21,569 nucleotides of DNA, taken from IMG/VR virus record IMGVR_UViG_3300028995_000043; one strand, 5' to 3'. Shown in pieces: positions 2,318 to 21,569 of this stretch. The stretch is from a virus. Its lineage: Duplodnaviria > Heunggongvirae > Uroviricota > Caudoviricetes. Position 1 is the stretch's first letter. Every line of letters begins with the position of its first letter. Below the pieces are notes generated by a model, which ran no database searches, was not told where the DNA came from, and saw only the letters and a program-made list of their open reading frames with translations. The position numbers and the translations under genes are program-made.

Positions 2318-2344
2318 TAAATGTACTACCTGCGCTAGCGCAGG

Positions 2345-2620
2345 CCAGAAGAGGCGCGTTGCCCAAGTAACGGTGTTGGAGGAGCCAGTCCTGTGATAAC
2401 ACCTGAGGGGGTGCATCGCCGAGGTGATTGAACGGCTGGCCACGTTCATCATCGGCTACAGGGGCTGAATCCCCTGGGTTGTCACCAGAAGCGTTCGCAG
2501 TCGGGCGTTTCGCAAGTGGTGGAGCACTTCTGGGTGAAAATAGTAGCGAAGTATCGCTCTGCGCCCACCCGTCTTCCGCTCTTCCCTTGTGCCAAGGCTG
2601 AAAATGGATCCCCTGACACG
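2345..2620 (+). promoter_or_regulatory. Lysine riboswitch (L-box) in the lysC 5' leader
   Basis: Long structured GC-rich leader beginning agaagaggcgcg..., with the ggaggagccagtcctgtgataacacctgagggggtgcatcgccgaggtgattgaacgg core characteristic of the lysC leader; directly precedes the lysC RBS and ATG at 2629. E. coli lysC is a known lysine-riboswitch-controlled gene. Confidence 0.8.
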
Positions 2621-2628
2621 AGGTAGTT

Positions 2629-3978
2629 ATGTCTGAAATTGTTGTCTCCAAATTTGGCGGTACCAGCGTAGCTGATTTTGACGCCATGAACCGCAGCGCT
2701 GATATTGTGCTTTCTGATGCCAACGTGCGTTTAGTAGTCCTCTCGGCTTCTGCTGGTATCACTAATCTGCTGGTCGCTTTAGCGGAAGGGCTGGAACCTG
2801 GCGAGCGATTCGAAAAACTCGACGCTATTCGCAACATCCAGTTTGCCATTCTGGAACGTCTGCGTTACCCGAACGTTATCCGTGAAGAGATTGAACGTCT
2901 GCTGGAGAACATTACTGTTCTGGCAGAAGCGGCGGCGCTGGCAACGTCTCCGGCGCTGACAGATGAGCTGGTCAGCCACGGCGAGCTGATGTCGACCCTG
3001 CTGTTTGTCGAAATCCTGCGCGAACGCGATGTTCAGGCACAGTGGTTTGATGTACGTAAAGTGATGCGTACCAACGACCGATTTGGTCGTGCAGAGCCAG
3101 ATGTAGCCGCGCTGGCGGAACTGGCCGCGCTGCAGCTGCTCCCACGCCTCAATGACGGCTTAGTGATCACCCAGGGATTTATCGGTAGCGAAAATAAAGG
3201 TCGTACAACGACGCTTGGCCGTGGAGGCAGCGATTATACGGCAGCCTTGCTGGCGGAGGCTTTACACGCATCTCGTGTTGATATCTGGACCGACGTCCCG
3301 GGCATCTACACCACCGATCCACGCGTAGTTTCCGCAGCAAAACGCATTGATGAAATCGCGTTTGCCGAAGCGGCAGAGATGGCAACTTTTGGTGCAAAAG
3401 TACTGCATCCGGCAACGTTGCTACCCGCAGTACGCAGCGATATCCCGGTCTTTGTCGGCTCCAGCAAAGACCCACGCGCAGGTGGTACGCTGGTGTGCAA
3501 TAAAACTGAAAATCCGCCGCTGTTCCGCGCGCTGGCGCTTCGTCGCAATCAGACTCTGCTCACTTTGCACAGCCTGAATATGCTGCATTCTCGCGGCTTC
3601 CTCGCGGAAGTTTTCGGCATCCTCGCGCGGCATAATATTTCGGTAGACTTAATCACCACGTCAGAAGTGAGCGTGGCATTAACCCTTGATACCACCGGTT
3701 CAACCTCCACTGGCGATACGTTGCTGACGCAATCTCTGCTGATGGAGCTTTCCGCACTGTGCCGGGTGGAAGTAGAAGAAGGTCTGGCGCTGGTCGCGTT
3801 GATTGGCAATGACCTGTCAAAAGCCTGCGGCGTTGGCAAAGAGGTATTCGGCGTACTGGAACCGTTCAACATTCGCATGATTTGTTACGGCGCATCCAGC
3901 CATAACCTGTGCTTCCTGGTGCCAGGCGAAGATGCCGAGCAGGTGGTGCAGAAGCTGCATTTTAATTTGTTTGAGTAA
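2629..3978 (+). CDS. lysC: Lysine-sensitive aspartokinase III
   Basis: 449-aa translation (MSEIVVSKFGGTSVADFDAMNRSADIVLSD... C-terminal ACT region) matches E. coli LysC as recalled; divergent from pgi as at the E. coli locus. Confidence 0.97.
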   Translation: MSEIVVSKFGGTSVADFDAMNRSADIVLSDANVRLVVLSASAGITNLLVALAEGLEPGERFEKLDAIRNIQFAILERLRYPNVIREEIERLLENITVLAEAAALATSPALTDELVSHGELMSTLLFVEILRERDVQAQWFDVRKVMRTNDRFGRAEPDVAALAELAALQLLPRLNDGLVITQGFIGSENKGRTTTLGRGGSDYTAALLAEALHASRVDIWTDVPGIYTTDPRVVSAAKRIDEIAFAEAAEMATFGAKVLHPATLLPAVRSDIPVFVGSSKDPRAGGTLVCNKTENPPLFRALALRRNQTLLTLHSLNMLHSRGFLAEVFGILARHNISVDLITTSEVSVALTLDTTGSTSTGDTLLTQSLLMELSALCRVEVEEGLALVALIGNDLSKACGVGKEVFGVLEPFNIRMICYGASSHNLCFLVPGEDAEQVVQKLHFNLFE

Positions 3979-4032: not shown

Positions 4033-4380
4033 TTACGAATTACTGCGGCGCTGTTGCTTTTCCGCATGTACGCGTTTCACTATCTTATAAATCCATTGCA
4101 GCGTCAGATTATATTTCTTCGCTAATTCGGCGTAGTTGCGCCCATCGCACTCGCTATAGATTTGGTAGTCACGCTCCGACGCCCGTCCGGAGATCCCTTT
4201 TGGGAAATAAATGCTTTGCCCGCCCCAGTTGCGCATCATTCGGTCGGCAATGGCAAAGCCCACATTTTCCGCCGATGAACTGTCGAGATTGATGCTTTCA
4301 ATCAGAACTTGCGATGCATGAAAAGCCAGGTCGTTAATGATCTCCGGTGTCCGGACCATCTCTTTTGATTTTCGTATCAT
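4033..4380 (-). CDS. Mor/C-family transcriptional activator (phage Mu middle-operon-regulator-like)
   Basis: 115-aa product with motifs GGQSIYFPKG, IYSECDGRNYAELAKKYNLT and YKIVKR that align with the C-terminal dimerisation/HTH region of Mu Mor as recalled; GGAG Shine-Dalgarno 8 nt before the ATG. Confidence 0.8.
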   Translation of the reverse strand: MIRKSKEMVRTPEIINDLAFHASQVLIESINLDSSSAENVGFAIADRMMRNWGGQSIYFPKGISGRASERDYQIYSECDGRNYAELAKKYNLTLQWIYKIVKRVHAEKQQRRSNS

Positions 4381-4545
4381 TTTTCATCTCCATATATCTT
4401 GCATCCTGAATAAGACCCGATGCGTGTAAAACCACGGATATACGCTAAGCAGTTGTCATTACTGCTACTCAATACATTCAACAAACAAATAAACAATCAC
4501 CAGAAATATAAATTCTTAATATTAATGAACGCATAAATTCACTAA

Positions 4546-4579
4546 ATAAATATATTGTTTGCGTTATGTTTCTTGTCAA
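4546..4579 (-). promoter_or_regulatory. Putative sigma70 promoter for the Mor-like gene
   Basis: Perfect -35 TTGACA on the minus strand (plus coordinates 4574-4579), followed by an AT-rich -10-like hexamer (TATATT/AATATA) at a 17-19 bp spacing; ~160 nt upstream of the Mor-like start. Confidence 0.3.
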
Positions 4580-4600
4580 CAGGAGTATCATTTTACACGA

Positions 4601-4620
4601 TACTGTATGCACATACAGTA
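4601..4620. promoter_or_regulatory. LexA binding site (SOS box)
   Basis: tactgtatgcacatacagta matches TACTG(TA)5CAGTA at both CTGT/ACAG half-sites and both flanking TA pairs, with 3 mismatches confined to the central spacer. The box is bracketed by the 8-bp inverted repeat ttttacac (4591-4598) / gtgtaaaa (4636-4643). Confidence 0.8.
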
Positions 4621-4916
4621 TTATTTTTACCTGTAGTGTAAAAAGATCGTTTCCCTCACAGTCGCTGACTTTCTTAAACAAACTTTAAAAATCAAATAAC
4701 TACTGACTATTCCTACGATTCACCATCATCTTTTCCCTGCATAATGACGCGCTTATTCGCGAGGTCACCTTTTGCTCTTTAATTGCTGAGTGGATTTATT
4801 AGCGGGCATGTTCATTTATAGAGAATCTATTTTTTAAAGTTATTTATTAAAGCTTTTTTCATTCTTCACTGGCGGGTTCTGGCGACACTAAACGCTCACT
4901 TATCAGGAGATACCGT

Positions 4917-5204
4917 ATGAAAAAAGTCACTCTTCCCCGGCTTTCCGGTTGGCTGGTCGCTTCCGTCGCGCTGTTTGTCGTGATCGGCTGGACCTCTTCA
5001 GCACAGATCCCGGTCGTCATTTATAAACTAAGCCTGGTTTCGCTTTCCGCGGTGCTGGGATACTGGCTCGATCGCAGTTTGTTCCCATGGGCACGGCCTG
5101 ACTCTTTTAGCCCATGGAAGGAACCGCGTTGCTGCGCGGCGGCAATGATTCGCCGCGCCATCATCGTTGCCGCCGTCTGTCTTTCCGTCGCCTTAGGGCT
5201 ATAG
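4917..5204 (+). CDS. Holin-like small membrane protein (putative)
   Basis: 95-aa product with three hydrophobic helices (SGWLVASVALFVVIGW, IPVVIYKLSLVSLSAVLGYWL, AIIVAAVCLSVALGL); strong AGGAG Shine-Dalgarno; stop overlaps the start of the downstream transglycosylase gene; first gene of the lysis/tail operon. Confidence 0.5.
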   Translation: MKKVTLPRLSGWLVASVALFVVIGWTSSAQIPVVIYKLSLVSLSAVLGYWLDRSLFPWARPDSFSPWKEPRCCAAAMIRRAIIVAAVCLSVALGL

Positions 5205-5206
5205 TG

Positions 5207-5812
5207 ATGTGGCTGAAATATATCGCGTCTATGATTATTTTCGTTCTTTTCCCTCTTAACGCCTCTGAACCGCCGCGAGCCTCTCTGGCATGGCGAAACG
5301 AACTAATTCGTACCGCTCGAGAAGTCTGGGGACTGAACGCCCCAGTGGCCGACTTTGCCGGGCAATTACACCAGGAGTCCGCCTGGCAGCCAATGGTACG
5401 TTCCCCCGTTGGCGCACAAGGCATGGCGCAATTTATGCCTGCCACAGCGACATGGATAAGCCTGTTGTATCCGCAGCTACGTGAAAATAAGCCCTATAAC
5501 CCAACCTGGGCGATTCGCGCACTGGTGCAATATGACCAGCATTTGTGGAAAAACATCTCAGCGAAAAATGATTGTCAGCGTATGGCGTTTACCCTAAGCG
5601 CCTATAACGGCGGTCAGGGATGGGTTAACCGGGATAAAAAACTGGCTGCATCCAAAGGGTTAGATGCCACTAGCTGGTTTGGTCATGTCGAGCGAGTCAA
5701 CGCCGGGCGCAGCGCCACGAACTGGCGAGAAAATCGTCGCTATCCGAAGATGATCCTCTATCAACATGCCGCCCGCTACCTACTCTGGGGGCAGGCAAGC
5801 TGTCTTCATTAA
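5207..5812 (+). CDS. Lytic transglycosylase (SLT domain) endolysin with N-terminal signal/SAR segment
   Basis: Motifs QLHQESAWQP (catalytic E-S), GAQGMAQFMPATA and AYNGGQGW typical of family-1 lytic transglycosylases; hydrophobic N-terminus MWLKYIASMIIFVLFPLNA. Start chosen at ATG 5207 (GTG 5204 also in frame) rather than the ORF-track start at 5114, which overlaps the holin-like gene. Confidence 0.8.
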   Translation: MWLKYIASMIIFVLFPLNASEPPRASLAWRNELIRTAREVWGLNAPVADFAGQLHQESAWQPMVRSPVGAQGMAQFMPATATWISLLYPQLRENKPYNPTWAIRALVQYDQHLWKNISAKNDCQRMAFTLSAYNGGQGWVNRDKKLAASKGLDATSWFGHVERVNAGRSATNWRENRRYPKMILYQHAARYLLWGQASCLH

Positions 5813-6256: not shown

Positions 6257-6712
6257 ATGGAAATTTTATCAGTAATGAATTCTGTTGTGACCAGATTACG
6301 TGAACAGAATCCCGAAATGGATGTATCTATTTCATCGGTTGATACCCATAAATATATTCCGCAGACGCAGCAAGTTACAGTGATTATTAATTATAGCGGT
6401 TCTCTATTTGCCATGCCTGAAAGCAGTGATGCTCTCGTGCAACAGCAAACGCTCCGCTTAACCGCCACCGTTATTGTTGGCAAAAATTGTGATGCGTTAA
6501 ACGCACTGGACCGCATACGCAGCGCATTGGGTGGCCTTCAGCTTCCTGATTGCGATCGTCTTCTTTGGCTTGAAAAAGAAATTAATACGGGTGAGAGCGG
6601 CGGTTTCTGCCGCTACATCCTGGAAATGGCGACCAGCTCGCTGTTTATCGCTGAACAGGAAACCACGGATCTTCCCCTACTTACGGAAGTTAATTACGAG
6701 GAAACTGAATGA
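6257..6712 (+). CDS. Hypothetical protein upstream of the sheath gene (possible tail completion/terminator role by position)
   Basis: 151-aa ORF with good AAGGAA Shine-Dalgarno, translationally coupled to the next gene (ATGA overlap); function inferred only from position in a Mu-like tail module. Confidence 0.55.
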   Translation: MEILSVMNSVVTRLREQNPEMDVSISSVDTHKYIPQTQQVTVIINYSGSLFAMPESSDALVQQQTLRLTATVIVGKNCDALNALDRIRSALGGLQLPDCDRLLWLEKEINTGESGGFCRYILEMATSSLFIAEQETTDLPLLTEVNYEETE

Positions 6713-6906
6713 AATACATCTACAACGGCCCGGCAAGCGGCGTCACCCTTGCCGACGGACAAGAAATCTTATTGTGGCCGAACAGTGAAATTGATCTGCC
6801 AGAAGACAACGAGTGGGTCATGACCATGATTGCCCGCAATCACCTGACTTCTGTCATCACTCAGGAAGAACAAAATAACGGAGAGGAAATTGTACATGGC
6901 AGCTAA
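6709..6906 (+). CDS. Small hypothetical protein conserved upstream of the sheath gene (putative)
   Basis: 65-aa ORF whose start overlaps the preceding stop and whose 3' end overlaps the sheath start; acidic C-terminus. Confidence 0.45.
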   Translation: MKYIYNGPASGVTLADGQEILLWPNSEIDLPEDNEWVMTMIARNHLTSVITQEEQNNGEEIVHGS

Positions 6907-8317
6907 TTATCTGCACGGTGTAGAAACCATTGAAATTGAAACCGGCCCGCGTCCCGTTAAAGCGGTAAAATCCGCCGTCATCGCTTTAATCGGTACGGCC
7001 CCCTGTGGTCCGGTAAATAAACCAACATTATGCCTTTCTGAAAGCGATGCTGCGCAGTTTGGCTCAACTCAGGCTAACTTTACGATCCCACAGGCGCTGA
7101 AGGCGATTTATGACCACGGTGCCGGTACGGTGGTGGTAATTAATGTGCTGGATCCGGTAAAACATGGACTGCATGTTGCCAATGAAACCATTACGTTCAA
7201 TAGTGCCGATAAAGCTAAATTAGCTCATCCGGGAGTAAGTTCAGTAATATTAAGACCAGGTACCAGTTCCACTACGTACAAAAATACATCTTACAATGTT
7301 AATGCCGCAGATGGCGTTATAACCCGTACCGGAACTGAAATCCCGGCAGGGGCGAAGGTTTACGCGACGTATACCTATGTTGATCCTACAAAGGTCACCG
7401 CAGCCGATATTATCGGTGCCGTAAATACCGCAGGCGACCGCACAGGGATGAAACTCCTTCAGGACACCTATAACCTGTATGGTTTCTACGCCAAAATCCT
7501 GCTTGCTCCCGTGTTCTGTACGCAAAAATCAGTAACTACCGAGCTGATTGCACAAGCGGAAAAACTCGGTGCGATTACCTACATTGATGCCCCGATTGGG
7601 ACGACATTCCAGCAGGTATTGGCAGGACGCAGTTCGCAAGGCGCTATCAACTTCAATACCAGCTCTGATCGTGCGCGTTTATGTTACCCACACGTCAAAG
7701 TTTACGATGGCATCACTAACCAGGAAGTTCTCGAACCGCTCTCTTCGCGCGCTGCCGGGCTACGTGCCAAAGTAGACCTCGAAAAAGGTTTCTGGTGGAG
7801 CAACTCAAACCAGGAAATTCAGGGTATTACCGGTATTGAACGTTCGCTTTCCGCAATGATTGATGATCCTCAAAGCGAAGTGAATCAGCTCAACGAAAAC
7901 GGCATTACCACTATTTTCAATAGTTACGGCTCTGGTCTGCGCTTGTGGGGCAACCGCACAGCGGCATGGCCTACCGTGACCCATATGCGTAACTTTGAAA
8001 ACGTCCGCCGGACAGGCGATGTAATTAATGAGTCAATCCGTTATTTCAGTCAGCAGTATATTGATATGCCGATTAATCAGGCGCTGATTGATGCCCTGAC
8101 CGAATCAGTAAATACCTGGGGCCGTAAGCTGATTGCCGACGGCGCACTGCTTGGCTTTGAGTGCTGGTACGATCCGGCGCGAAATTCACCGACTGAACTC
8201 AGCGCTGGGCATTTATTGCTTAGCTATAAATTCACCCCGCCGCCGCCGCTGGAACGTCTGACGTTTGAAACTGAAATTACTTCTGAATATTTAGTCTCTC
8301 TGGAGAGCAATAGCTAA
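6896..8317 (+). CDS. Contractile tail sheath protein
   Basis: N-terminus MAANYLHGVETIEIETGPRPV and C-terminus LLLSYKFTPPPPLERLTFETEITSEYL resemble P2 FI / Mu L sheath proteins as recalled. ATG at 6896 preferred over the TTG at 6890 (GGAGAGGA Shine-Dalgarno 6-8 nt upstream). Confidence 0.9.
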   Translation: MAANYLHGVETIEIETGPRPVKAVKSAVIALIGTAPCGPVNKPTLCLSESDAAQFGSTQANFTIPQALKAIYDHGAGTVVVINVLDPVKHGLHVANETITFNSADKAKLAHPGVSSVILRPGTSSTTYKNTSYNVNAADGVITRTGTEIPAGAKVYATYTYVDPTKVTAADIIGAVNTAGDRTGMKLLQDTYNLYGFYAKILLAPVFCTQKSVTTELIAQAEKLGAITYIDAPIGTTFQQVLAGRSSQGAINFNTSSDRARLCYPHVKVYDGITNQEVLEPLSSRAAGLRAKVDLEKGFWWSNSNQEIQGITGIERSLSAMIDDPQSEVNQLNENGITTIFNSYGSGLRLWGNRTAAWPTVTHMRNFENVRRTGDVINESIRYFSQQYIDMPINQALIDALTESVNTWGRKLIADGALLGFECWYDPARNSPTELSAGHLLLSYKFTPPPPLERLTFETEITSEYLVSLESNS

Positions 8318-16841: not shown

Positions 16842-18611
16842 ATGGATAATGAATTTTATACCCTCCTGACCAATAGAGGGATGGCAAAAATTGCCAGTGC
16901 TCTTGCGGATAAAAAACAACTGCATCTGCAAAAGATGGCCGTTGGAGACGGCGGTGGGCAATATTATGAACCCACGGCGAGTCAAACTAAATTACGCCAT
17001 GAGGTCTGGCGCGGTGATTTAAATACATTAACAGTTGCGCCCAATAATCCTAGCTGGTTAATTGCGGAACTTGTACTGCCCGAAAATATCGGCGGCTGGT
17101 ATATACGTGAAGTCGGCGTTTTTGATACCGATGGTGAACTCATTGCTATCGGTAAATTCCCGGAGTCGTATAAACCGCTATTACCCGGCGGCTGCGGTAA
17201 GCAAGTTTGCATTCGTCTCATTATGGAAGTGTCCAACACGACTGCGGTAACACTCACCGTTGATCCCAGTATTGTGCTGGCAACACGGGATTACGTCGAT
17301 TCGCAACTGGATGAACACGAACATTCGACTAACCACCCTGATGCTACATTGACACAAAAAGGCTTTACGCAGTTGAGTAACGCCACTGACAGTGATGACG
17401 AAACCAAAGCGGCTACGCCAAAAGCGGTGAAAGCGGCACTGATTGAGGCTCGAAATCATCGTCATACCTGGAGTCAGATTACTGATATACCAGATGGCAC
17501 ACTGACGCAAAAAGGGATTGTGAAGCTTAGTAACGCGACCAATAGCAACAGCACGACAGAGGCGGCGACTCCGAGCGCGGTGAAGGCGGCATATGACCTG
17601 GCGAATAGTAAGGCTGCGGGTAGTCATACGCACCCCTGGGGACAGATTACGAGTATTCCTGACGGTACCCTGACACAAAAAGGGATTGTGAAACTTAATA
17701 ACGCGACCAATAGCAACAGTACGACGGAGGCGGCGACACCGAGCGCGGTGAAGGCGGCATATGACCTGGCGAATAGTAAGGCTGCGGGAAACCATACTCA
17801 CCCATGGGGACAGATTACGGGTGTTCCAGACGGCACCCTGTCGCAAAAAGGGATTGTGAAGCTTAATAACGCGACGGATAGCAACAGTACGACGGAGGCG
17901 GCGACACCGAGCGCGGTGAAGGCGGCGTATGATAAAGCCTGTGAGGCATATAGCAGGATTAACAATTCCTCATTCCGATTCTATACATCAAATGGAACAT
18001 TTACCGTGCCAGCTGGAGTGACAGAAATACTTCTGGAAATGTCAGGCGGCGGAGGGGGCGGTGGAGGTGGGGCAGTCGCCGGAAGCTCGACAATGCTGAA
18101 TCCAAAATTTGGACTAGGCGGCGGAGCAGGAAAACCCGGTGAACTGATAATTGCCTCTCTCACAGTTAAACCCGGAGATATGTATTCCTTTACAGTTGGG
18201 TCCGGAGGGGCTGGAGGGGCTGGAGGTACACAGGTGATACCAGAGCGTGGTCCGGGATGGATTCCCGAAGATGCAATGGGGCAAGCAGGTATTCCAGGAG
18301 GAGCATCACATTTTTCTTCACAGAGTGCTTCCGGCGGTGCTGGTGGGGGGGGAGGTAAAATCATAACTATCGACTCCCCGCACGCCAACTCAGTAGGAGA
18401 GGTTCCCAAAACATACTCCAGCAACGGTGAAACTGCAGTAAATACTCCTTATGGAAAAGGGGGCTTGGGAGGAGCGAATAGTGATGGTCAATCCGGCTCT
18501 GGTTATGGGGCGGGAGGTGGGGGAGGGGCTGGTTTAGGATCAACTTGGGTAAACCACGTTGCCCGCAATGGCGGTCGTGGCTTGGGTGGTTATATAAAAA
18601 TTTTATGGTGA
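16842..18611 (+). CDS. Tail fibre protein (P2 gpH-like N-terminus, tandem fibre repeats, glycine-rich C-terminal region)
   Basis: N-terminal ~170 aa align closely with P2 gpH (MAVGDGGG...HEVWR...IAELV.P...GG...RE.G..D..G.LIA...ESYKP...ATRDYVD...EHE.S..HPDA.LT.KGFTQLS.AT.S); four ~56-aa repeats (TQKGIVKL.NATNSNSTTEAATPSAVKAAYDLA); C-terminal ~190 aa extremely Gly-rich. Confidence 0.85.
   Translation: MDNEFYTLLTNRGMAKIASALADKKQLHLQKMAVGDGGGQYYEPTASQTKLRHEVWRGDLNTLTVAPNNPSWLIAELVLPENIGGWYIREVGVFDTDGELIAIGKFPESYKPLLPGGCGKQVCIRLIMEVSNTTAVTLTVDPSIVLATRDYVDSQLDEHEHSTNHPDATLTQKGFTQLSNATDSDDETKAATPKAVKAALIEARNHRHTWSQITDIPDGTLTQKGIVKLSNATNSNSTTEAATPSAVKAAYDLANSKAAGSHTHPWGQITSIPDGTLTQKGIVKLNNATNSNSTTEAATPSAVKAAYDLANSKAAGNHTHPWGQITGVPDGTLSQKGIVKLNNATDSNSTTEAATPSAVKAAYDKACEAYSRINNSSFRFYTSNGTFTVPAGVTEILLEMSGGGGGGGGGAVAGSSTMLNPKFGLGGGAGKPGELIIASLTVKPGDMYSFTVGSGGAGGAGGTQVIPERGPGWIPEDAMGQAGIPGGASHFSSQSASGGAGGGGGKIITIDSPHANSVGEVPKTYSSNGETAVNTPYGKGGLGGANSDGQSGSGYGAGGGGGAGLGSTWVNHVARNGGRGLGGYIKILW
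17337..17935 (+). repeat. Tandem 168-bp coding repeats within the tail fibre gene (4 copies; middle two near-identical)
   Basis: Repeat units start at ~17337 (degenerate), 17490, 17658 and 17826, an exact 168-bp period for the last three; each encodes DGTL(T/S)QKGIVKL(S/N)NAT(N/D)SNSTTEAATPSAVKAAYD..., with HTHPWGQIT in the middle copies. Confidence 0.9.
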
Positions 18612-19677: not shown

Positions 19678-19698
19678 CGCCGGGCTTTATGCCCGGCG
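19678..19698. terminator. Hairpin between convergent tail operon and NTase operon (putative bidirectional terminator)
   Basis: 8-bp GC-rich stem cgccgggc/gcccggcg with loop tttat, overlapping the NTase stop codon; modest U-richness downstream on the minus strand. Confidence 0.4.
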
Positions 19699-20487
19699 CA
19701 TTACCGTTTGATACAGCAAATTATCTAGCTCCCGAACATCTCCATCTCGACTGTCCGGTAAAATCGGCGGAATTTCCCCACGCGCCAGCTCCGCGCGAAT
19801 AAACGCATGTAACAAAGGACGGCGCGGACCATATTCCGCTTCTCCCGCGCGCTGTTTACGTTCCAGCAGTTCGTCTATTTCTGCACGTAACGGTGCATCA
19901 AGCTCGCTTCCCGCCAGTAACTCGGCAAAGCGCATTGGCGGCACACCTTTACCCGCTTCGACCCAGCGCACGGCCAGCAGCGGACGCAGCACGTAAAAGT
20001 ATTTTTTCAGTCGAACTTCATCGCCCTGCAAATAGCCGCGGAAGTTTTTCTGCGCCATCGAATAGTAATGCCAGCGTGCACGCAACGAAGAAAACCACAT
20101 TGGCACCATTGCCTTAAGCGCCGTTATCGTTTCTTCATCTTGTTGATAGACCACCGGAGAATCCAGCCATTCTATTAGCGTCGGATTCGCGCCTTTCAAT
20201 AATCCCAGCGCCTTACGCCACTCCCAACCGGAAACATCTAACTCGTCGTCGATAGGCAGTTCGATAACATCGCGCGGTGACTCTACACGCAGATACCATT
20301 CCAGCGGATGGACATACAAAAACCGTACATCGTAGTCGCTATCGGGCGAGGCAAATCCCCAGCCGCGGCTGCCTGATTCGCAGGCGTACAGCACTTTCAC
20401 GCCATAGCGACATTCTATTTCTTTTAACTGCTGCGATACCCGTTCGCGCATCGCAGCACTGACTCCATTTAATGGCATTTGACTCAT
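19687..20487 (-). CDS. Pol-beta-superfamily nucleotidyltransferase (minimal NTase fold; RlaP-like candidate)
   Basis: 266 aa; classic NTase signature GSRGWGFASPDSDYDVRF (G[GS]x9-13 DxD); AAAGGA Shine-Dalgarno; start overlaps the stop of the upstream SPFH gene by 4 nt (ATGA). Confidence 0.85.
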   Translation of the reverse strand: MSQMPLNGVSAAMRERVSQQLKEIECRYGVKVLYACESGSRGWGFASPDSDYDVRFLYVHPLEWYLRVESPRDVIELPIDDELDVSGWEWRKALGLLKGANPTLIEWLDSPVVYQQDEETITALKAMVPMWFSSLRARWHYYSMAQKNFRGYLQGDEVRLKKYFYVLRPLLAVRWVEAGKGVPPMRFAELLAGSELDAPLRAEIDELLERKQRAGEAEYGPRRPLLHAFIRAELARGEIPPILPDSRDGDVRELDNLLYQTVMRRA

Positions 20488-21569
20488 CCTTTGATATTCA
20501 CTAACCCGTGCAGAACCTGATCCAGACCACCAAATACAGAGATGTTATCGATCCGCTCAGCCACTCTCTCCAGCGTTTCCAGCTCTTTTAAACGCAACGC
20601 TACCGGATTGTTCTCCATGACTTTTGCGGTGTTCAGTAACGAGCGCGTCGCTGCCGTTTCTTCACGTCGGCGAATCACATTGGCCTGCGCAGATTTCTCT
20701 GCCTCAACCAGCTGCGCGAGGATATTTTTCATATCACCAGGCAGGACGATATCTTTCACCCCTAATGAGGCAATCTCCATACCAAATGGCAACATACGCG
20801 ATTTCACCTGTTCGCTGACAACGTCATCAATGACTTGTTTATCTTCCAGCAACTCATCCAGCGTACGCGTACCTACCGCTTCACGCAGTGCAAATTGCAA
20901 TTCCCGATACAAATGATCAATCGGCTTCGTTAACTGACTAAATGCCAATAACACGTCGCTGTAGCGCCAGTTAGCGGCGAGATTAATCCGCAGATTGACC
21001 TTATCTTTCGTTAAGATTTCTTGCCCGCTGACTTCCAGTACCTGCAAGCGGGTGTCAACCACTTCAGCTTCAACCAGATGGTTAATTTTCCAGTACGCAG
21101 TCAGCCCCGGCGGTAACAGCGCCTGCGTTTCACCATCGATTTTCAGTACACCTACGTGCCAGGCCGGAACCTGCACCGTCAGTATCGCATCGCGGCCTTT
21201 AACTACCCCTTTGCGCCGTGGCTGCAATACCGCATTCATCACCTCCGTTTGAACCTGGACTTGCTGCGTACTCATCCGCACCAGCGTCAAATCATCCTCT
21301 ACACGCCAGTACAAACGACGTGTTGATGGCGGCAGGATCTCCAGCAAAATACCGTCCATATACAACGCCCCGGCTTCAGTCTCCGACAAGTCGGCCACCA
21401 CGCAATATCTTTCCACCCACTCTGGCTGAAAGCGGCGCAAATAATCCGCCAGCACGTCGGGAACTTCGCTGCCATCGAGCGTAATCAGCAAAACTTCTGG
21501 CGTATTTAACCAGGGTAAAAGATGCTCGCCTGCATGCAGCACTTTGTAGTAATCGCCATTTCTGGAGAG
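20484..21569 (-). CDS. SPFH/band-7 (stomatin/prohibitin-like) domain protein with N-terminal extension; 5'-partial at window edge
   Basis: C-terminal ~200 aa align with stomatin-type SPFH domains (TKDKVNLRINLAANWRY; TLDELLEDKQVIDDVVSEQV...GMEIASLGVKDIVLPGDMKNILAQLVEAEKSAQANVIRRREETAATRSLLNTAKVMENNPVALRLKELETLERVAERIDNISVFG). The frame stays open to the window end, so the true start is probably beyond 21569. Confidence 0.85.
   Translation of the reverse strand, partial: LSRNGDYYKVLHAGEHLLPWLNTPEVLLITLDGSEVPDVLADYLRRFQPEWVERYCVVADLSETEAGALYMDGILLEILPPSTRRLYWRVEDDLTLVRMSTQQVQVQTEVMNAVLQPRRKGVVKGRDAILTVQVPAWHVGVLKIDGETQALLPPGLTAYWKINHLVEAEVVDTRLQVLEVSGQEILTKDKVNLRINLAANWRYSDVLLAFSQLTKPIDHLYRELQFALREAVGTRTLDELLEDKQVIDDVVSEQVKSRMLPFGMEIASLGVKDIVLPGDMKNILAQLVEAEKSAQANVIRRREETAATRSLLNTAKVMENNPVALRLKELETLERVAERIDNISVFGGLDQVLHGLVNIKG

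What the first reader, a model, noticed from the sequence alone, without database searches (positions are those of the whole stretch)
4591..4643. Near-consensus LexA box embedded in a larger palindrome in the divergent control region
tactgtatgcacatacagta (4601-4620) has perfect CTGT-N8-ACAG half-sites and flanks. It is itself bracketed by an 8-bp inverted repeat (ttttacac at 4591-4598, gtgtaaaa at 4636-4643), and a third gtgtaaaa copy lies at 4424-4431. A perfect TTGACA -35 on the minus strand (4574-4579) sits about 22 bp from the box. This suggests SOS control of the Mor-like activator and/or the lysis-tail operon, plus a possible second operator for another regulator.
Basis: partly seen in the sequence, partly recalled or inferred. 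Interest (0 to 1): 0.7.

Follow-up and report, generated by a model that had tools for sequence, protein, structure and literature searches.

The report
LexA operator controlling a domesticated phage-tail island
A very strong, evolutionarily conserved binding site for the DNA-damage repressor LexA sits between the activator gene and the lysis/tail genes of a headless phage-tail island in E. coli, so the island is most likely switched on by DNA damage; this is an ordinary kind of switch in a little-studied place.

Summary
The window is E. coli chromosome (pgi, lysC) followed by a BcepMu-derived island with a Mor-family activator, holin, SLT and a full contractile tail, but no head, transposase or repressor. 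It is the counterpart of Salmonella STM4196-STM4219.

The box is present in 22 distinct control regions from at least five enterobacterial genera. CTGT, ACAG and neighbouring bases never vary while the central bases drift, which is the LexA motif profile. A 10-bp left flank (CATTTTACAC) is co-conserved. It reads as a -35 for a holin-ward promoter (TTTACA-16-TACAGT) and as a -10 (TAAAAT) for a mor-ward one.

Published Salmonella start sites put the known mor promoter about 110 bp from the box, so LexA cannot occlude that promoter. The mor orthologue rises 4-fold with nalidixic acid, yet the published Salmonella SOS regulon omits it.

Verdict: a genuine LexA operator giving SOS control of the island. 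Which promoter it controls is unresolved, with mor-ward slightly favoured.

The parts
4601..4620 (.). LexA operator (SOS box) TACTGTATGCACATACAGTA
   Evidence: HI 3.79. Present in all 22 box-bearing orthologous control regions, with positions 1, 3-6, 8, 13 and 15-18 invariant and positions 9, 10 and 20 nearly free.
4589..4598 (.). Invariant left flank CATTTTACAC. It contains TTTACA (a plus-strand -35) and, on the other strand, TAAAAT (a minus-strand -10).
   Evidence: 1.1-2.0 bits per position across 19 distinct sequences, against 0.1-0.9 bits further out. Invariant columns in alignment A1.
4592..4619 (+). Predicted holin-ward sigma-70 promoter TTTACA-16-TACAGT. The box covers its spacer and -10; predicted start about 4626.
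   Evidence: The only promoter-like hit in 4300-5000, and likewise in Salmonella. Identical in 18 of 22 variants; lost in L003, L033, L034 and L035. No start site is mapped there in non-SOS Salmonella.
4590..4618 (-). Predicted mor-ward distal promoter: -35 CTGTAT (4618-4613) inside the box, 17-bp spacer, -10 TAAAAT (4595-4590). Predicted start about 4583, giving a 5' UTR of about 200 nt.
   Evidence: A mor-ward promoter overlapping the box is found in all 22 variants (scores 3.5-6.5). The tract at 4621-4628 is T-rich on the plus strand, so A-rich upstream of this promoter, in 72% of cells.
4615..4642 (-).
   Evidence: The arm is not conserved outside E. coli and varies among E. coli alleles.
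4033..4380 (-). Mor-family transcription activator gene (115 aa)
   Evidence: Pfam PF08765, E = 6e-38. RefSeq annotation. 45-50% identical to the late/middle activators of Bcepmuviruses.
4495..4535 (.). Region homologous to the two back-to-back start sites mapped in S. Typhimurium SL1344: mor proximal promoter at about 4504 (minus) and a holin-ward start at about 4529 (plus)
   Evidence: PMC3963941 supplement file 13, transferred through L037 and alignment A1. This is a homology transfer, not a measurement in E. coli.
4640..4659 (.). Conserved block AAAAAGATCGTTTCCCTCAC, function unknown. It forms terminator-like hairpins in Salmonella but not in this allele.
   Evidence: Also retained in the box-less lineage.
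4674..4695 (.). Conserved block TTAAACAAACTTTAAAAATCAA, function unknown
   Evidence: Also retained in the box-less lineage.
4829..4852 (+). Conserved block ATTTTTTAAAGTTATTTATTAAAG upstream of a -35-less -10-like GACACT (4884-4889). Candidate Mor-dependent late promoter of the lysis-tail operon.
   Evidence: Invariant columns in alignments A1 and A3. Its role is inferred by analogy with the Mu Mor/C promoters (own knowledge) and was not tested.
4917..5204 (+). Holin, first gene of the lysis-tail operon. It is followed by SLT 5207-5812, Gp37 6257-6712, sheath 6890-8317, and on to the tail fibre 16842-18611.
   Evidence: Pfam Holin_2-3, SLT and Gp37. RefSeq annotation.
4636..4643 (.). Not a conserved element.
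4424..4431 (.). Not conserved, at chance level.
   Evidence: The 8-mer in either orientation occurs somewhere in 5% of resampled spacers.
4574..4579 (-). Specific to the E. coli clade; the box lies upstream of it and does not overlap it.

Best explanation
The 20-mer at 4601-4620 is a functional LexA operator. It lies in the core of a compact two-way promoter module inside the 536-bp spacer that separates a Mor-family activator gene from the holin-SLT-tail operon. These genes belong to a BcepMu-derived, head-less, transposase-less island (tailocin-like) inserted between lysC and yjbD.

With LexA bound, RNA polymerase is excluded from the promoters that overlap the box. These are a distal mor-ward promoter (-10 TAAAAT in the invariant flank, -35 inside the box, plus a mirror TTTACA-16-TACTGT in E. 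coli alleles) and a holin-ward promoter (TTTACA-16-TACAGT).

DNA damage leads to RecA-stimulated LexA self-cleavage, which opens these promoters. Extra Mor is then made on top of a LexA-independent proximal promoter, and Mor activates the -35-less promoter next to the conserved block at 4829-4852. The holin, transglycosylase and tail genes are expressed, with holin-ward read-through from the box possibly adding to this.

Shown: the site, its strength, its conservation pattern, the co-conserved flank, the island's gene content, and the Salmonella start sites and nalidixic-acid response. Inferred: LexA binding itself, which promoter(s) are used, Mor dependence of the late promoter, and particle production. 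My sub-probabilities are 0.85 that LexA binds and confers SOS control on the island, 0.6 that a mor-ward promoter is controlled, and 0.5 that a holin-ward promoter is controlled. The confidence value given is for the whole chain as stated.
For: Site strength: HI 3.79, better than recA (4.7) in the same matrix and better than any of 1,000 shuffled windows; pattern counts.

Orthologues: a box is present in E. coli, Salmonella, Dryocola, Phytobacter and Superficieibacter, 221-292 bp from the mor ATG, and in 22 distinct control regions overall. HI ranges from 0.5 to 5.3.

LexA-type information profile: half-sites invariant, centre free, inside a spacer with 59-61% mean identity.

Promoters: the co-conserved 10-bp flank gives promoter elements on both strands at fixed spacing.

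Silence without SOS: in non-SOS Salmonella dRNA-seq only two start sites are listed in the spacer, none at the box-overlapping promoters or near the holin, as expected if those are repressed.

Induction: the mor orthologue STM14_5073 is 4.08-fold up with nalidixic acid.

Origin: intact Bcepmuviruses keep Mor at the end of a repressor-controlled early operon and have no LexA box (best HI 9.6-10.8). The operator therefore arrived with domestication, when the phage's own repressor circuit was lost.

Box-less relatives: the best promoter in the homologous segment points toward mor in 2 of 3.
Against: There is no binding or start-site data under SOS conditions for any island-bearing strain.

The mapped mor start in Salmonella is 106-125 bp from the box, so the known mor promoter is not occluded.

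The proposed mor-ward promoter has a poor -35 (CTGTAT) and scores below the holin-ward one.

The 4-fold mor induction comes from a dataset in which 1,091 genes are up, including ribosomal proteins, because of a growth-phase confound. The holin and tail genes (STM14_5045-5072) are absent from the same differential-expression list, so the full cascade was not seen in Salmonella 14028.

The authors of that study did not list the gene as a LexA target.

The HI matrix rests on operator sequences recalled from memory.
Confidence: 0.55

Rival explanations
1. LexA controls only the holin-ward promoter TTTACA-16-TACAGT. SOS then directly drives a roughly 290-nt leader into the lysis-tail operon (or, in lineages with a hairpin, a short leader RNA), while mor is LexA-independent.
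For: This is the best consensus match on either strand and the only hit of the promoter scan in both E. coli and Salmonella. The element is identical in 18 of 22 variants. No terminator is predicted between the box and the holin in the E. coli allele.
Against: The critical -10 bases are lost in four variants that still keep a good LexA box: L003 AACAGT, L033 TACAGC, L034/L035 TACAGA. The holin and tail genes are not induced by nalidixic acid in Salmonella while mor is. Salmonella has a terminator-like hairpin 40-60 nt downstream. It does not explain conservation of flank positions -11 to -9.
Confidence: 0.25
2. LexA acts as a roadblock. The holin-ward transcript starts about 83 nt upstream of the box (Salmonella TSS at 4459135, homologous to about window 4529), and tightly bound LexA stops elongation toward the holin.
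For: A primary holin-ward start site is mapped upstream of the box in SL1344 and was assigned to the STM4218 operon. The box lies at +83 to +102 of that transcript. The operator is very strong (HI 0.5-3.8).
Against: To my knowledge LexA is not known to work as an elongation roadblock. The start site sits in AT-rich DNA, 432 nt from the holin, and may be a spurious or weak promoter. That promoter sequence is not conserved in E. coli. This model does not explain the co-conserved flank at fixed spacing.
Confidence: 0.07
3. The box is one part of a larger composite operator (TTTTACAC ... GTGTAAAA, with a third copy at 4424) bound by a second regulator such as Mor itself.
For: The 8-bp arms are exact in this allele. 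The specific 8-mer has a low a priori chance of falling at that spot (about 0.001-0.002). The left arm is strongly conserved.
Against: The right arm and third copy are absent in Salmonella, Dryocola, Phytobacter and Superficieibacter and vary among E. coli alleles. The repeat is off-centre from the box by 6.5 bp. Some 8-bp inverted repeat within 60 bp appears in 43% of random spacers. Half of the right arm is simply the conserved A-run of the next block.
Confidence: 0.04
4. The site is a non-functional relic, or is conserved for a reason unrelated to LexA, for example as a palindromic recombination or IS target or a site for another protein.
For: No experimental LexA data exist. The published Salmonella SOS regulon omits it. 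ISKox3 has inserted into its centre at least twice. One island lineage does without it.
Against: Position-by-position conservation matches LexA specificity, with the centre free and CTGTAT/ATACAG fixed. It persists across at least five genera in a spacer that is otherwise about 60% identical. All orthologues fall in the HI range of strong operators.
Confidence: 0.08

Closest known systems
E. coli chromosomal LexA operators (recA, sulA, umuDC)
   Same: The 20-bp TACTGTAT-N4-ATACAGTA palindrome. It differs from the recA operator (TACTGTATGAGCATACAGTA, own knowledge) at only two central positions. It overlaps core promoter elements.
   Different: It lies in an accessory island carried by about 4% of complete E. 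coli genomes (197 of 5,426). It is 221 bp and 296 bp from the two nearest start codons, whereas typical SOS genes have the box within about 100 bp.
uvrA-ssb shared LexA box in a divergent promoter region
   Same: One operator sits between two divergently transcribed units and may repress both. PMC8072944 notes this sharing.
   Different: Here the candidate promoters overlap each other on the same roughly 30 bp, and neither has been mapped.
R-pyocin PrtR/PrtN circuit of Pseudomonas aeruginosa (own knowledge)
   Same: A DNA-damage-cleavable repressor holds down a dedicated activator, which then turns on a lysis-plus-contractile-tail cluster.
   Different: The host LexA itself would play the PrtR role and a Mor/C-family protein the PrtN role. 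There is no element-encoded repressor, and the tail is BcepMu/Mu-type rather than P2-type.
Colicin operons (e.g. colicin E1, own knowledge)
   Same: Direct LexA repression of a bacteriocin-plus-lysis operon.
   Different: Colicin promoters carry two overlapping LexA boxes just downstream of the -10. Here there is a single box and an intermediate activator gene.
LexA-repressed antirepressors of temperate phages (coliphage 186 Tum; Gifsy GfoA/GftA, cited in PMC7067206)
   Same: A phage-derived element is wired to SOS through a host LexA box on a small regulatory gene, rather than through a cleavable phage repressor.
   Different: The regulated gene here is a transcription activator, not an antirepressor, and the element has no repressor left to inactivate.
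Mu / BcepMu Mor-C late-gene cascade
   Same: A Mor-family activator (PF08765) and a -35-less late promoter in front of a holin-SLT lysis cassette and a Mu-type tail. The gene order matches BcepMu gp21-22 and gp37-52.
   Different: In the phages Mor is the last gene of the repressor-controlled early operon, and no LexA box is present. In the island it stands alone with its own LexA-linked control region.

Membership tests
Gammaproteobacterial LexA operator (SOS box) | CTGT-N8-ACAG inverted repeat within a 20-bp TACTGTATATATATACAGTA-like site | tested here: met
   Exact half-sites and 17 of 20 matches to the consensus.
Gammaproteobacterial LexA operator (SOS box) | Heterology index within the range of proven operators. 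The usual cut-off is about 12.6 (Lewis 1994, own knowledge). | tested here: met
   HI 3.79. Proven operators score 0.9-9.6 in the same approximate matrix, and orthologues score 0.5-5.3.
Gammaproteobacterial LexA operator (SOS box) | Conserved in orthologous regulatory regions, with constraint on the half-sites and not on the centre | tested here: met
   22 distinct control regions from at least five genera. Positions 3-6 and 15-18 are invariant; positions 9 and 10 carry 0.6-0.8 bits.
Gammaproteobacterial LexA operator (SOS box) | Overlaps or abuts an active promoter | tested here: inconclusive
   It overlaps predicted promoters on both strands. The two start sites mapped in non-SOS Salmonella are 83 and 106 bp away. 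No SOS-condition mapping is available.
Gammaproteobacterial LexA operator (SOS box) | Adjacent gene induced by DNA damage in a LexA-dependent way | tested here: inconclusive
   The mor orthologue is 4.08-fold up with nalidixic acid, but in a confounded dataset. Holin and tail genes are not listed, and LexA dependence was not tested.
Gammaproteobacterial LexA operator (SOS box) | Bound by LexA in vitro or in vivo | not testable with these tools
   Needs EMSA, footprinting or ChIP.
Mor/C family of phage transcription activators | Sequence membership (Pfam PF08765) and a size of about 110-140 aa | tested here: met
   E = 6.3e-38, 129.5 bits against a cut-off of 24.9; 115 aa.
Mor/C family of phage transcription activators | Activates a -35-less middle or late promoter by binding upstream of it | not testable with these tools
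   Only a conserved block (4829-4852) upstream of a -35-less -10-like hexamer was found.
R-type (contractile) tailocin | Complete contractile-tail gene set plus a lysis cassette, with no head, replication/transposition or integration genes | tested here: met
   The RefSeq annotation between lysC and yjbD lists holin, SLT, sheath, tube, tape measure, baseplate and fibre genes, and no capsid, terminase, transposase or integrase. Pfam agrees.
R-type (contractile) tailocin | Particles are produced and kill other bacteria | not testable with these tools
   No report was found for this island.
Colicin-type dual LexA operator | Two overlapping LexA boxes | tested here: not met
   Only one site in the window scores below HI 10.9.

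The most novel reading that the evidence does not exclude
After a BcepMu-type transposable phage lost its early region and head genes, its tail-plus-lysis remnant was rewired to the host. A host LexA operator was installed in a two-way promoter, so LexA directly gates the single retained Mor-family activator, and possibly the lysis-tail leader as well. That would make a LexA-Mor version of the PrtR-PrtN pyocin switch, shared by E. coli, Salmonella and at least three other enterobacterial genera. Natural populations then tune or silence it, through an operator-less lineage and through repeated ISKox3 insertions exactly into the operator centre.
Probability: 0.4. Interest if true: 0.55.

Novelty: new member of a known kind. 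Interest (0 to 1): 0.4.

Why it matters
If LexA really gates this island, then about 4% of complete E. coli genomes, many Salmonella (the STM4196-STM4219 region) and several other enterics carry an SOS-inducible lysis-plus-tail module. That module is missing from published SOS regulons.

This would bear on three things. The first is antibiotic-induced lysis, since quinolones induce SOS. The second is possible tailocin-mediated competition in the gut. The third is interpretation of the Salmonella island, which also carries a gtr O-antigen modification operon.

It would also give a clean example of how a domesticated phage remnant replaces its own repressor with a host regulator. The two-way promoter module is small enough to dissect with a handful of reporter fusions.

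Tried and rejected
- **Rfam:** a search of 4300-5000 at E <= 1 found no known RNA family.
- **Conserved leader structure:** a terminator-like hairpin exists in Salmonella (z = -1.6), Phytobacter also forms a stable hairpin (z = -2.5) but without a U-rich tail, L031 has only a weak one, and this E. coli allele has none. It is not a shared feature.
- **ST131 'tailocin' paper (PMC9205054):** it describes a different, P2-like prophage.
- **Owen et al. 2020 (PMC7067206):** it does not treat this island.
- **Start-site tables of PMC3293720:** no entry for these genes.
- **Raw FIMO box list of PMC8072944:** not in the held supplements, so I could not tell why the site was left out of Table 1.
- **KP12 holin-upstream region:** compared with the island's holin-proximal block, with no evident shared motif.
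- **LexA boxes in intact Bcepmuviruses and in Pasteurellaceae Mu-like loci:** none found.
- **Indole microarray and motility-screen papers that mention STM4213 or STM4219:** no regulatory insight.
- **First literature query:** swamped by the term LexA.
- **First HI script:** timed out and was rerun vectorised.

Full report
**What is in the sequence**

The window is E. coli chromosome. It runs pgi (455-2110, minus), the lysine riboswitch and lysC (2629-3978), and then an island that ends before yjbD. The island carries the following genes:
- a 115-aa Mor-family gene (4033-4380, minus; Pfam PF08765, E = 6e-38);
- a 536-bp spacer with 34% G+C;
- on the plus strand, a holin (Holin_2-3), an SLT transglycosylase, a small membrane protein, Gp37, sheath, tube, tape measure, baseplate and fibre genes.

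The island has no capsid, terminase, transposase, integrase or repressor gene. It is present in 197 of 5,426 complete E. coli genomes, always on the chromosome. It is the counterpart of the Salmonella LT2 region STM4196-STM4219, which additionally carries a gtrABC insertion.

The Mor protein is 45-50% identical to the late/middle activators of Bcepmuviruses. The gene order matches BcepMu gp21-22 (holin, SLT) and gp37-52 (tail). The island is therefore a BcepMu-type genome that has lost its early region and its head module.

**Is the box more than chance?**

Yes. CTGT-N8-ACAG occurs once in the window against 0.16 expected. The 20-mer consensus with up to three mismatches occurs once against 0.00 expected.

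I computed a Berg-von Hippel heterology index using 28 E. coli operators recalled from memory, which is an approximation. The site scores 3.79. In the same matrix recA scores 4.7 and umuDC 0.9. The next best 20-mer in the window scores 10.9. The best site in 1,000 shuffled windows scores 5.13, and the best in 5,000 shuffled spacers scores 4.74.

**Comparative evidence**

Searching one genome per species with the Mor protein returned four more enterobacterial islands: Dryocola, Phytobacter and two Superficieibacter. It also returned 13 Pasteurellaceae Mu-like prophages.

All six enterobacterial islands carry a box 221-292 bp from the mor ATG; the Pasteurellaceae loci have none upstream of mor. 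A scan of IMG/VR with an alignment of the six Mor proteins added 26 loci, giving 22 distinct box-bearing control regions.

The spacer has only 59-61% mean identity. Within it, box positions 1, 3-6, 8, 13 and 15-18 are invariant across 19 distinct 80-mers. Positions 9, 10 and 20 are almost free at 0.4-0.8 bits; the central four positions read GCAC, ACAT, GTGC, ACGT, AAAT, TTAC and others. That is the information profile of the LexA motif. Orthologous boxes score HI 0.5-5.3.

Intact Bcepmuviruses (KP12, BcepMu, part of PhiKM) have no site better than HI 9.6, which is chance level for their size. The operator therefore belongs to the domesticated island rather than being inherited from the sampled phages. 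One island lineage (L041, L044, L045; Mor 88-89% identical) lacks the box. There the box-plus-flank segment is replaced while the downstream blocks are retained.

Only the left arm is conserved, as part of an invariant 10-mer CATTTTACAC (4589-4598; 1.1-2.0 bits per position, against 0.1-0.9 further out).

The right arm GTGTAAAA, the third copy and the minus-strand TTGACA are absent in the other genera. The right arm also varies among E. coli alleles (GAGTAAAA, GTGTTAAA).

The inverted repeat is centred at 4617, whereas the box is centred at 4610.5. Half of the right arm is the A-run of a conserved AAAAAGATCG block. Some 8-bp inverted repeat within 60 bp occurs in 43% of composition-matched random spacers. 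I therefore reject the 'larger palindrome / second operator' reading.

In E. coli alleles the right arm does create a mirror-image TTTACA-16-TACTGT on the minus strand. This may matter locally but is not a family feature.

**Which promoter does the box control?**

The invariant flank has two readings at fixed spacing from the box.

- *Plus strand.* TTTACA-16-TACAGT points toward the holin. It is the only hit of the promoter scan in E. coli and in Salmonella. It is identical in 18 of 22 variants. Its critical -10 bases are lost in four variants that keep a good LexA box: L003 AACAGT, L033 TACAGC, L034/L035 TACAGA.
- *Minus strand.* The flank gives a -10 TAAAAT, with a weak -35 (CTGTAT) inside the box and an A-rich tract upstream. 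The corresponding plus-strand positions +21 to +28 are T in 72% of cells. A mor-ward promoter overlapping the box is found in all 22 variants, with lower scores of 3.5-6.5.
- *Box-less lineage.* The best promoter in the homologous segment points toward mor in 2 of 3 loci.
- *Flank conservation.* All ten flank positions are conserved, which neither reading explains alone. Together the two readings explain eight of the ten.

**Experimental data from Salmonella**

Late-stationary-phase dRNA-seq of SL1344 lists two primary start sites in the spacer (PMC3963941, supplement file 13). One is for mor, 120 nt upstream of its ATG, behind a perfect TATAAT. The other is a back-to-back holin-ward start, 432 nt upstream of the holin.

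Locus L037 matches both published promoter strings exactly, so it is the Typhimurium-type allele. It carries the box TACTGTATGCATATACAGTT. The box lies 106-125 bp upstream of the mapped mor start and at +83 to +102 of the holin-ward transcript. By alignment these starts correspond to about window 4504 and 4529.

LexA therefore cannot occlude the known mor promoter. No start is listed at either box-overlapping promoter or near the holin in those non-SOS cells, as expected if they are repressed.

In the nalidixic-acid RNA-seq of strain 14028 (PMC8072944), the mor orthologue STM14_5073 is 4.08-fold up (49 to 205). No gene from STM14_5045 to STM14_5072 is in the differential list. However, 1,091 genes are up in that comparison, including ribosomal proteins, so this is weak support.

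That paper's Table 1 of 47 LexA targets omits STM14_5073, although the gene meets the stated criteria of a box within 400 bp and induction.

Salmonella also has a terminator-like hairpin (CTCACGATCGCGTGAG followed by T5) 40-60 nt downstream of the putative holin-ward start. It is weak or absent in other lineages and absent in this E. coli allele.

**Most likely mechanism**

The box is a genuine LexA operator in a compact two-way promoter module. DNA damage removes LexA. A distal mor promoter then adds to a constitutive proximal one, and Mor activates the -35-less promoter beside the conserved block ATTTTTTAAAGTTATTTATTAAAG (4829-4852; -10-like GACACT at 4884-4889). The holin, SLT and tail genes are expressed as a result. 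A holin-ward promoter at the box may contribute directly.

I put 0.85 on LexA binding and SOS control of the island, about 0.6 on mor-ward control and about 0.5 on holin-ward control. The rivals are holin-ward only, roadblock, composite operator and relic. Each is listed with its evidence in the rival explanations.

**Comparison with known systems**

The site is an ordinary, very strong member of the gammaproteobacterial LexA operator class. It differs from the recA operator only in two central bases (own knowledge of the recA sequence).

In logic the circuit resembles the PrtR-PrtN switch of R-pyocins and the LexA-repressed antirepressors of phage 186 and the Gifsy phages. Here host LexA stands in for the element's own repressor and a Mor-family activator is the relay. 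Unlike colicin promoters, it has a single box.

I found no paper that describes this operator, or this island as a tailocin.

I rate it a new member of a known kind. It is of moderate interest because it is conserved across genera, sits in a widespread but unstudied island, and is absent from the published Salmonella SOS regulon.

**Seen in passing**

In about 11 island-bearing E. coli genomes the spacer match breaks inside the box. In two different island alleles an identical ISKox3 element lies exactly in the centre of the box, in the same orientation. The 8-bp target duplications are allele-specific, ATACACAT and ATACATAT. That indicates at least two independent insertions, each of which destroys the operator and both candidate promoters.

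Noticed in passing
window 4607-4614 (centre of the LexA box); L048 2184/3501 and L049 2184/3501: ISKox3 (ISL3 family; 1,316 bp identical, same orientation) is inserted exactly in the centre of the LexA box in two different island alleles. The 8-bp target duplications are allele-specific (ATACACAT and ATACATAT), so there were at least two independent insertions. About 11 of 197 island-bearing genomes show the same break point. This reflects either a target preference for this palindrome or selection to silence the island.
   Followed up: partly
L041, L044, L045 (IMG/VR contigs; Mor 88-89% identical): An island lineage with no LexA box. The box-plus-flank segment is replaced, but the blocks AAAGAAATCGTACGCCTCAC and TTTTAAACAAATTTCAAAAA and most of the holin-proximal block are kept. 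The best promoter in the replaced segment points toward mor in 2 of 3 loci.
   Followed up: partly
window 4640-4659 and 4674-4695: Two blocks (AAAAAGATCGTTTCCCTCAC and TTAAACAAACTTTAAAAATCAA) are conserved more widely than the LexA box itself, and their function is unknown. The first carries a GATC (Dam) site. In Salmonella and Phytobacter it forms a CGATC-N5/6-GATCG palindrome, and in Salmonella it gives terminator-like hairpins on both strands. The second contains AATCAA preceded by an A-tract, which loosely resembles an IHF core (own knowledge).
   Followed up: partly
Literature: PMC8072944, Table 1 and Dataset S1: The published S. Typhimurium SOS regulon lists the mor orthologue STM14_5073 as 4.08-fold induced by nalidixic acid. 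It does not include the gene among the 47 LexA-box genes, although a near-consensus box lies about 226 bp upstream, inside the paper's 400-bp limit.
   Followed up: partly
window 19687-21542, minus strand: At the far end of the island sits a gene pair: an RlaP-family nucleotidyltransferase (Pfam PF10127, E = 2e-95) and a slipin/SPFH-family protein. They are transcribed opposite to the tail genes and may be cargo or a defence-like module.
   Followed up: no
L002 30173-33008 (Salmonella island): The Salmonella version of the island has a gtrA-gtrB-gtrC O-antigen glucosylation operon inserted between the baseplate V and W genes. It has its own mapped start site (SL1344 4448593). The E. coli version lacks this insertion.
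   Followed up: no
window 2341-2537, plus strand: The lysine riboswitch upstream of lysC, annotated in RefSeq. It is ordinary, but it accounts for the long ORF-free leader and the spurious overlapping ORFs listed there.
   Followed up: no
Literature: PMC3405474, Table 2: The Salmonella sheath gene STM4213 was reported as 6.5-fold and 5.7-fold up with 1 and 4 mM indole in a microarray. This hints that the tail operon can be expressed under some non-SOS conditions.
   Followed up: no
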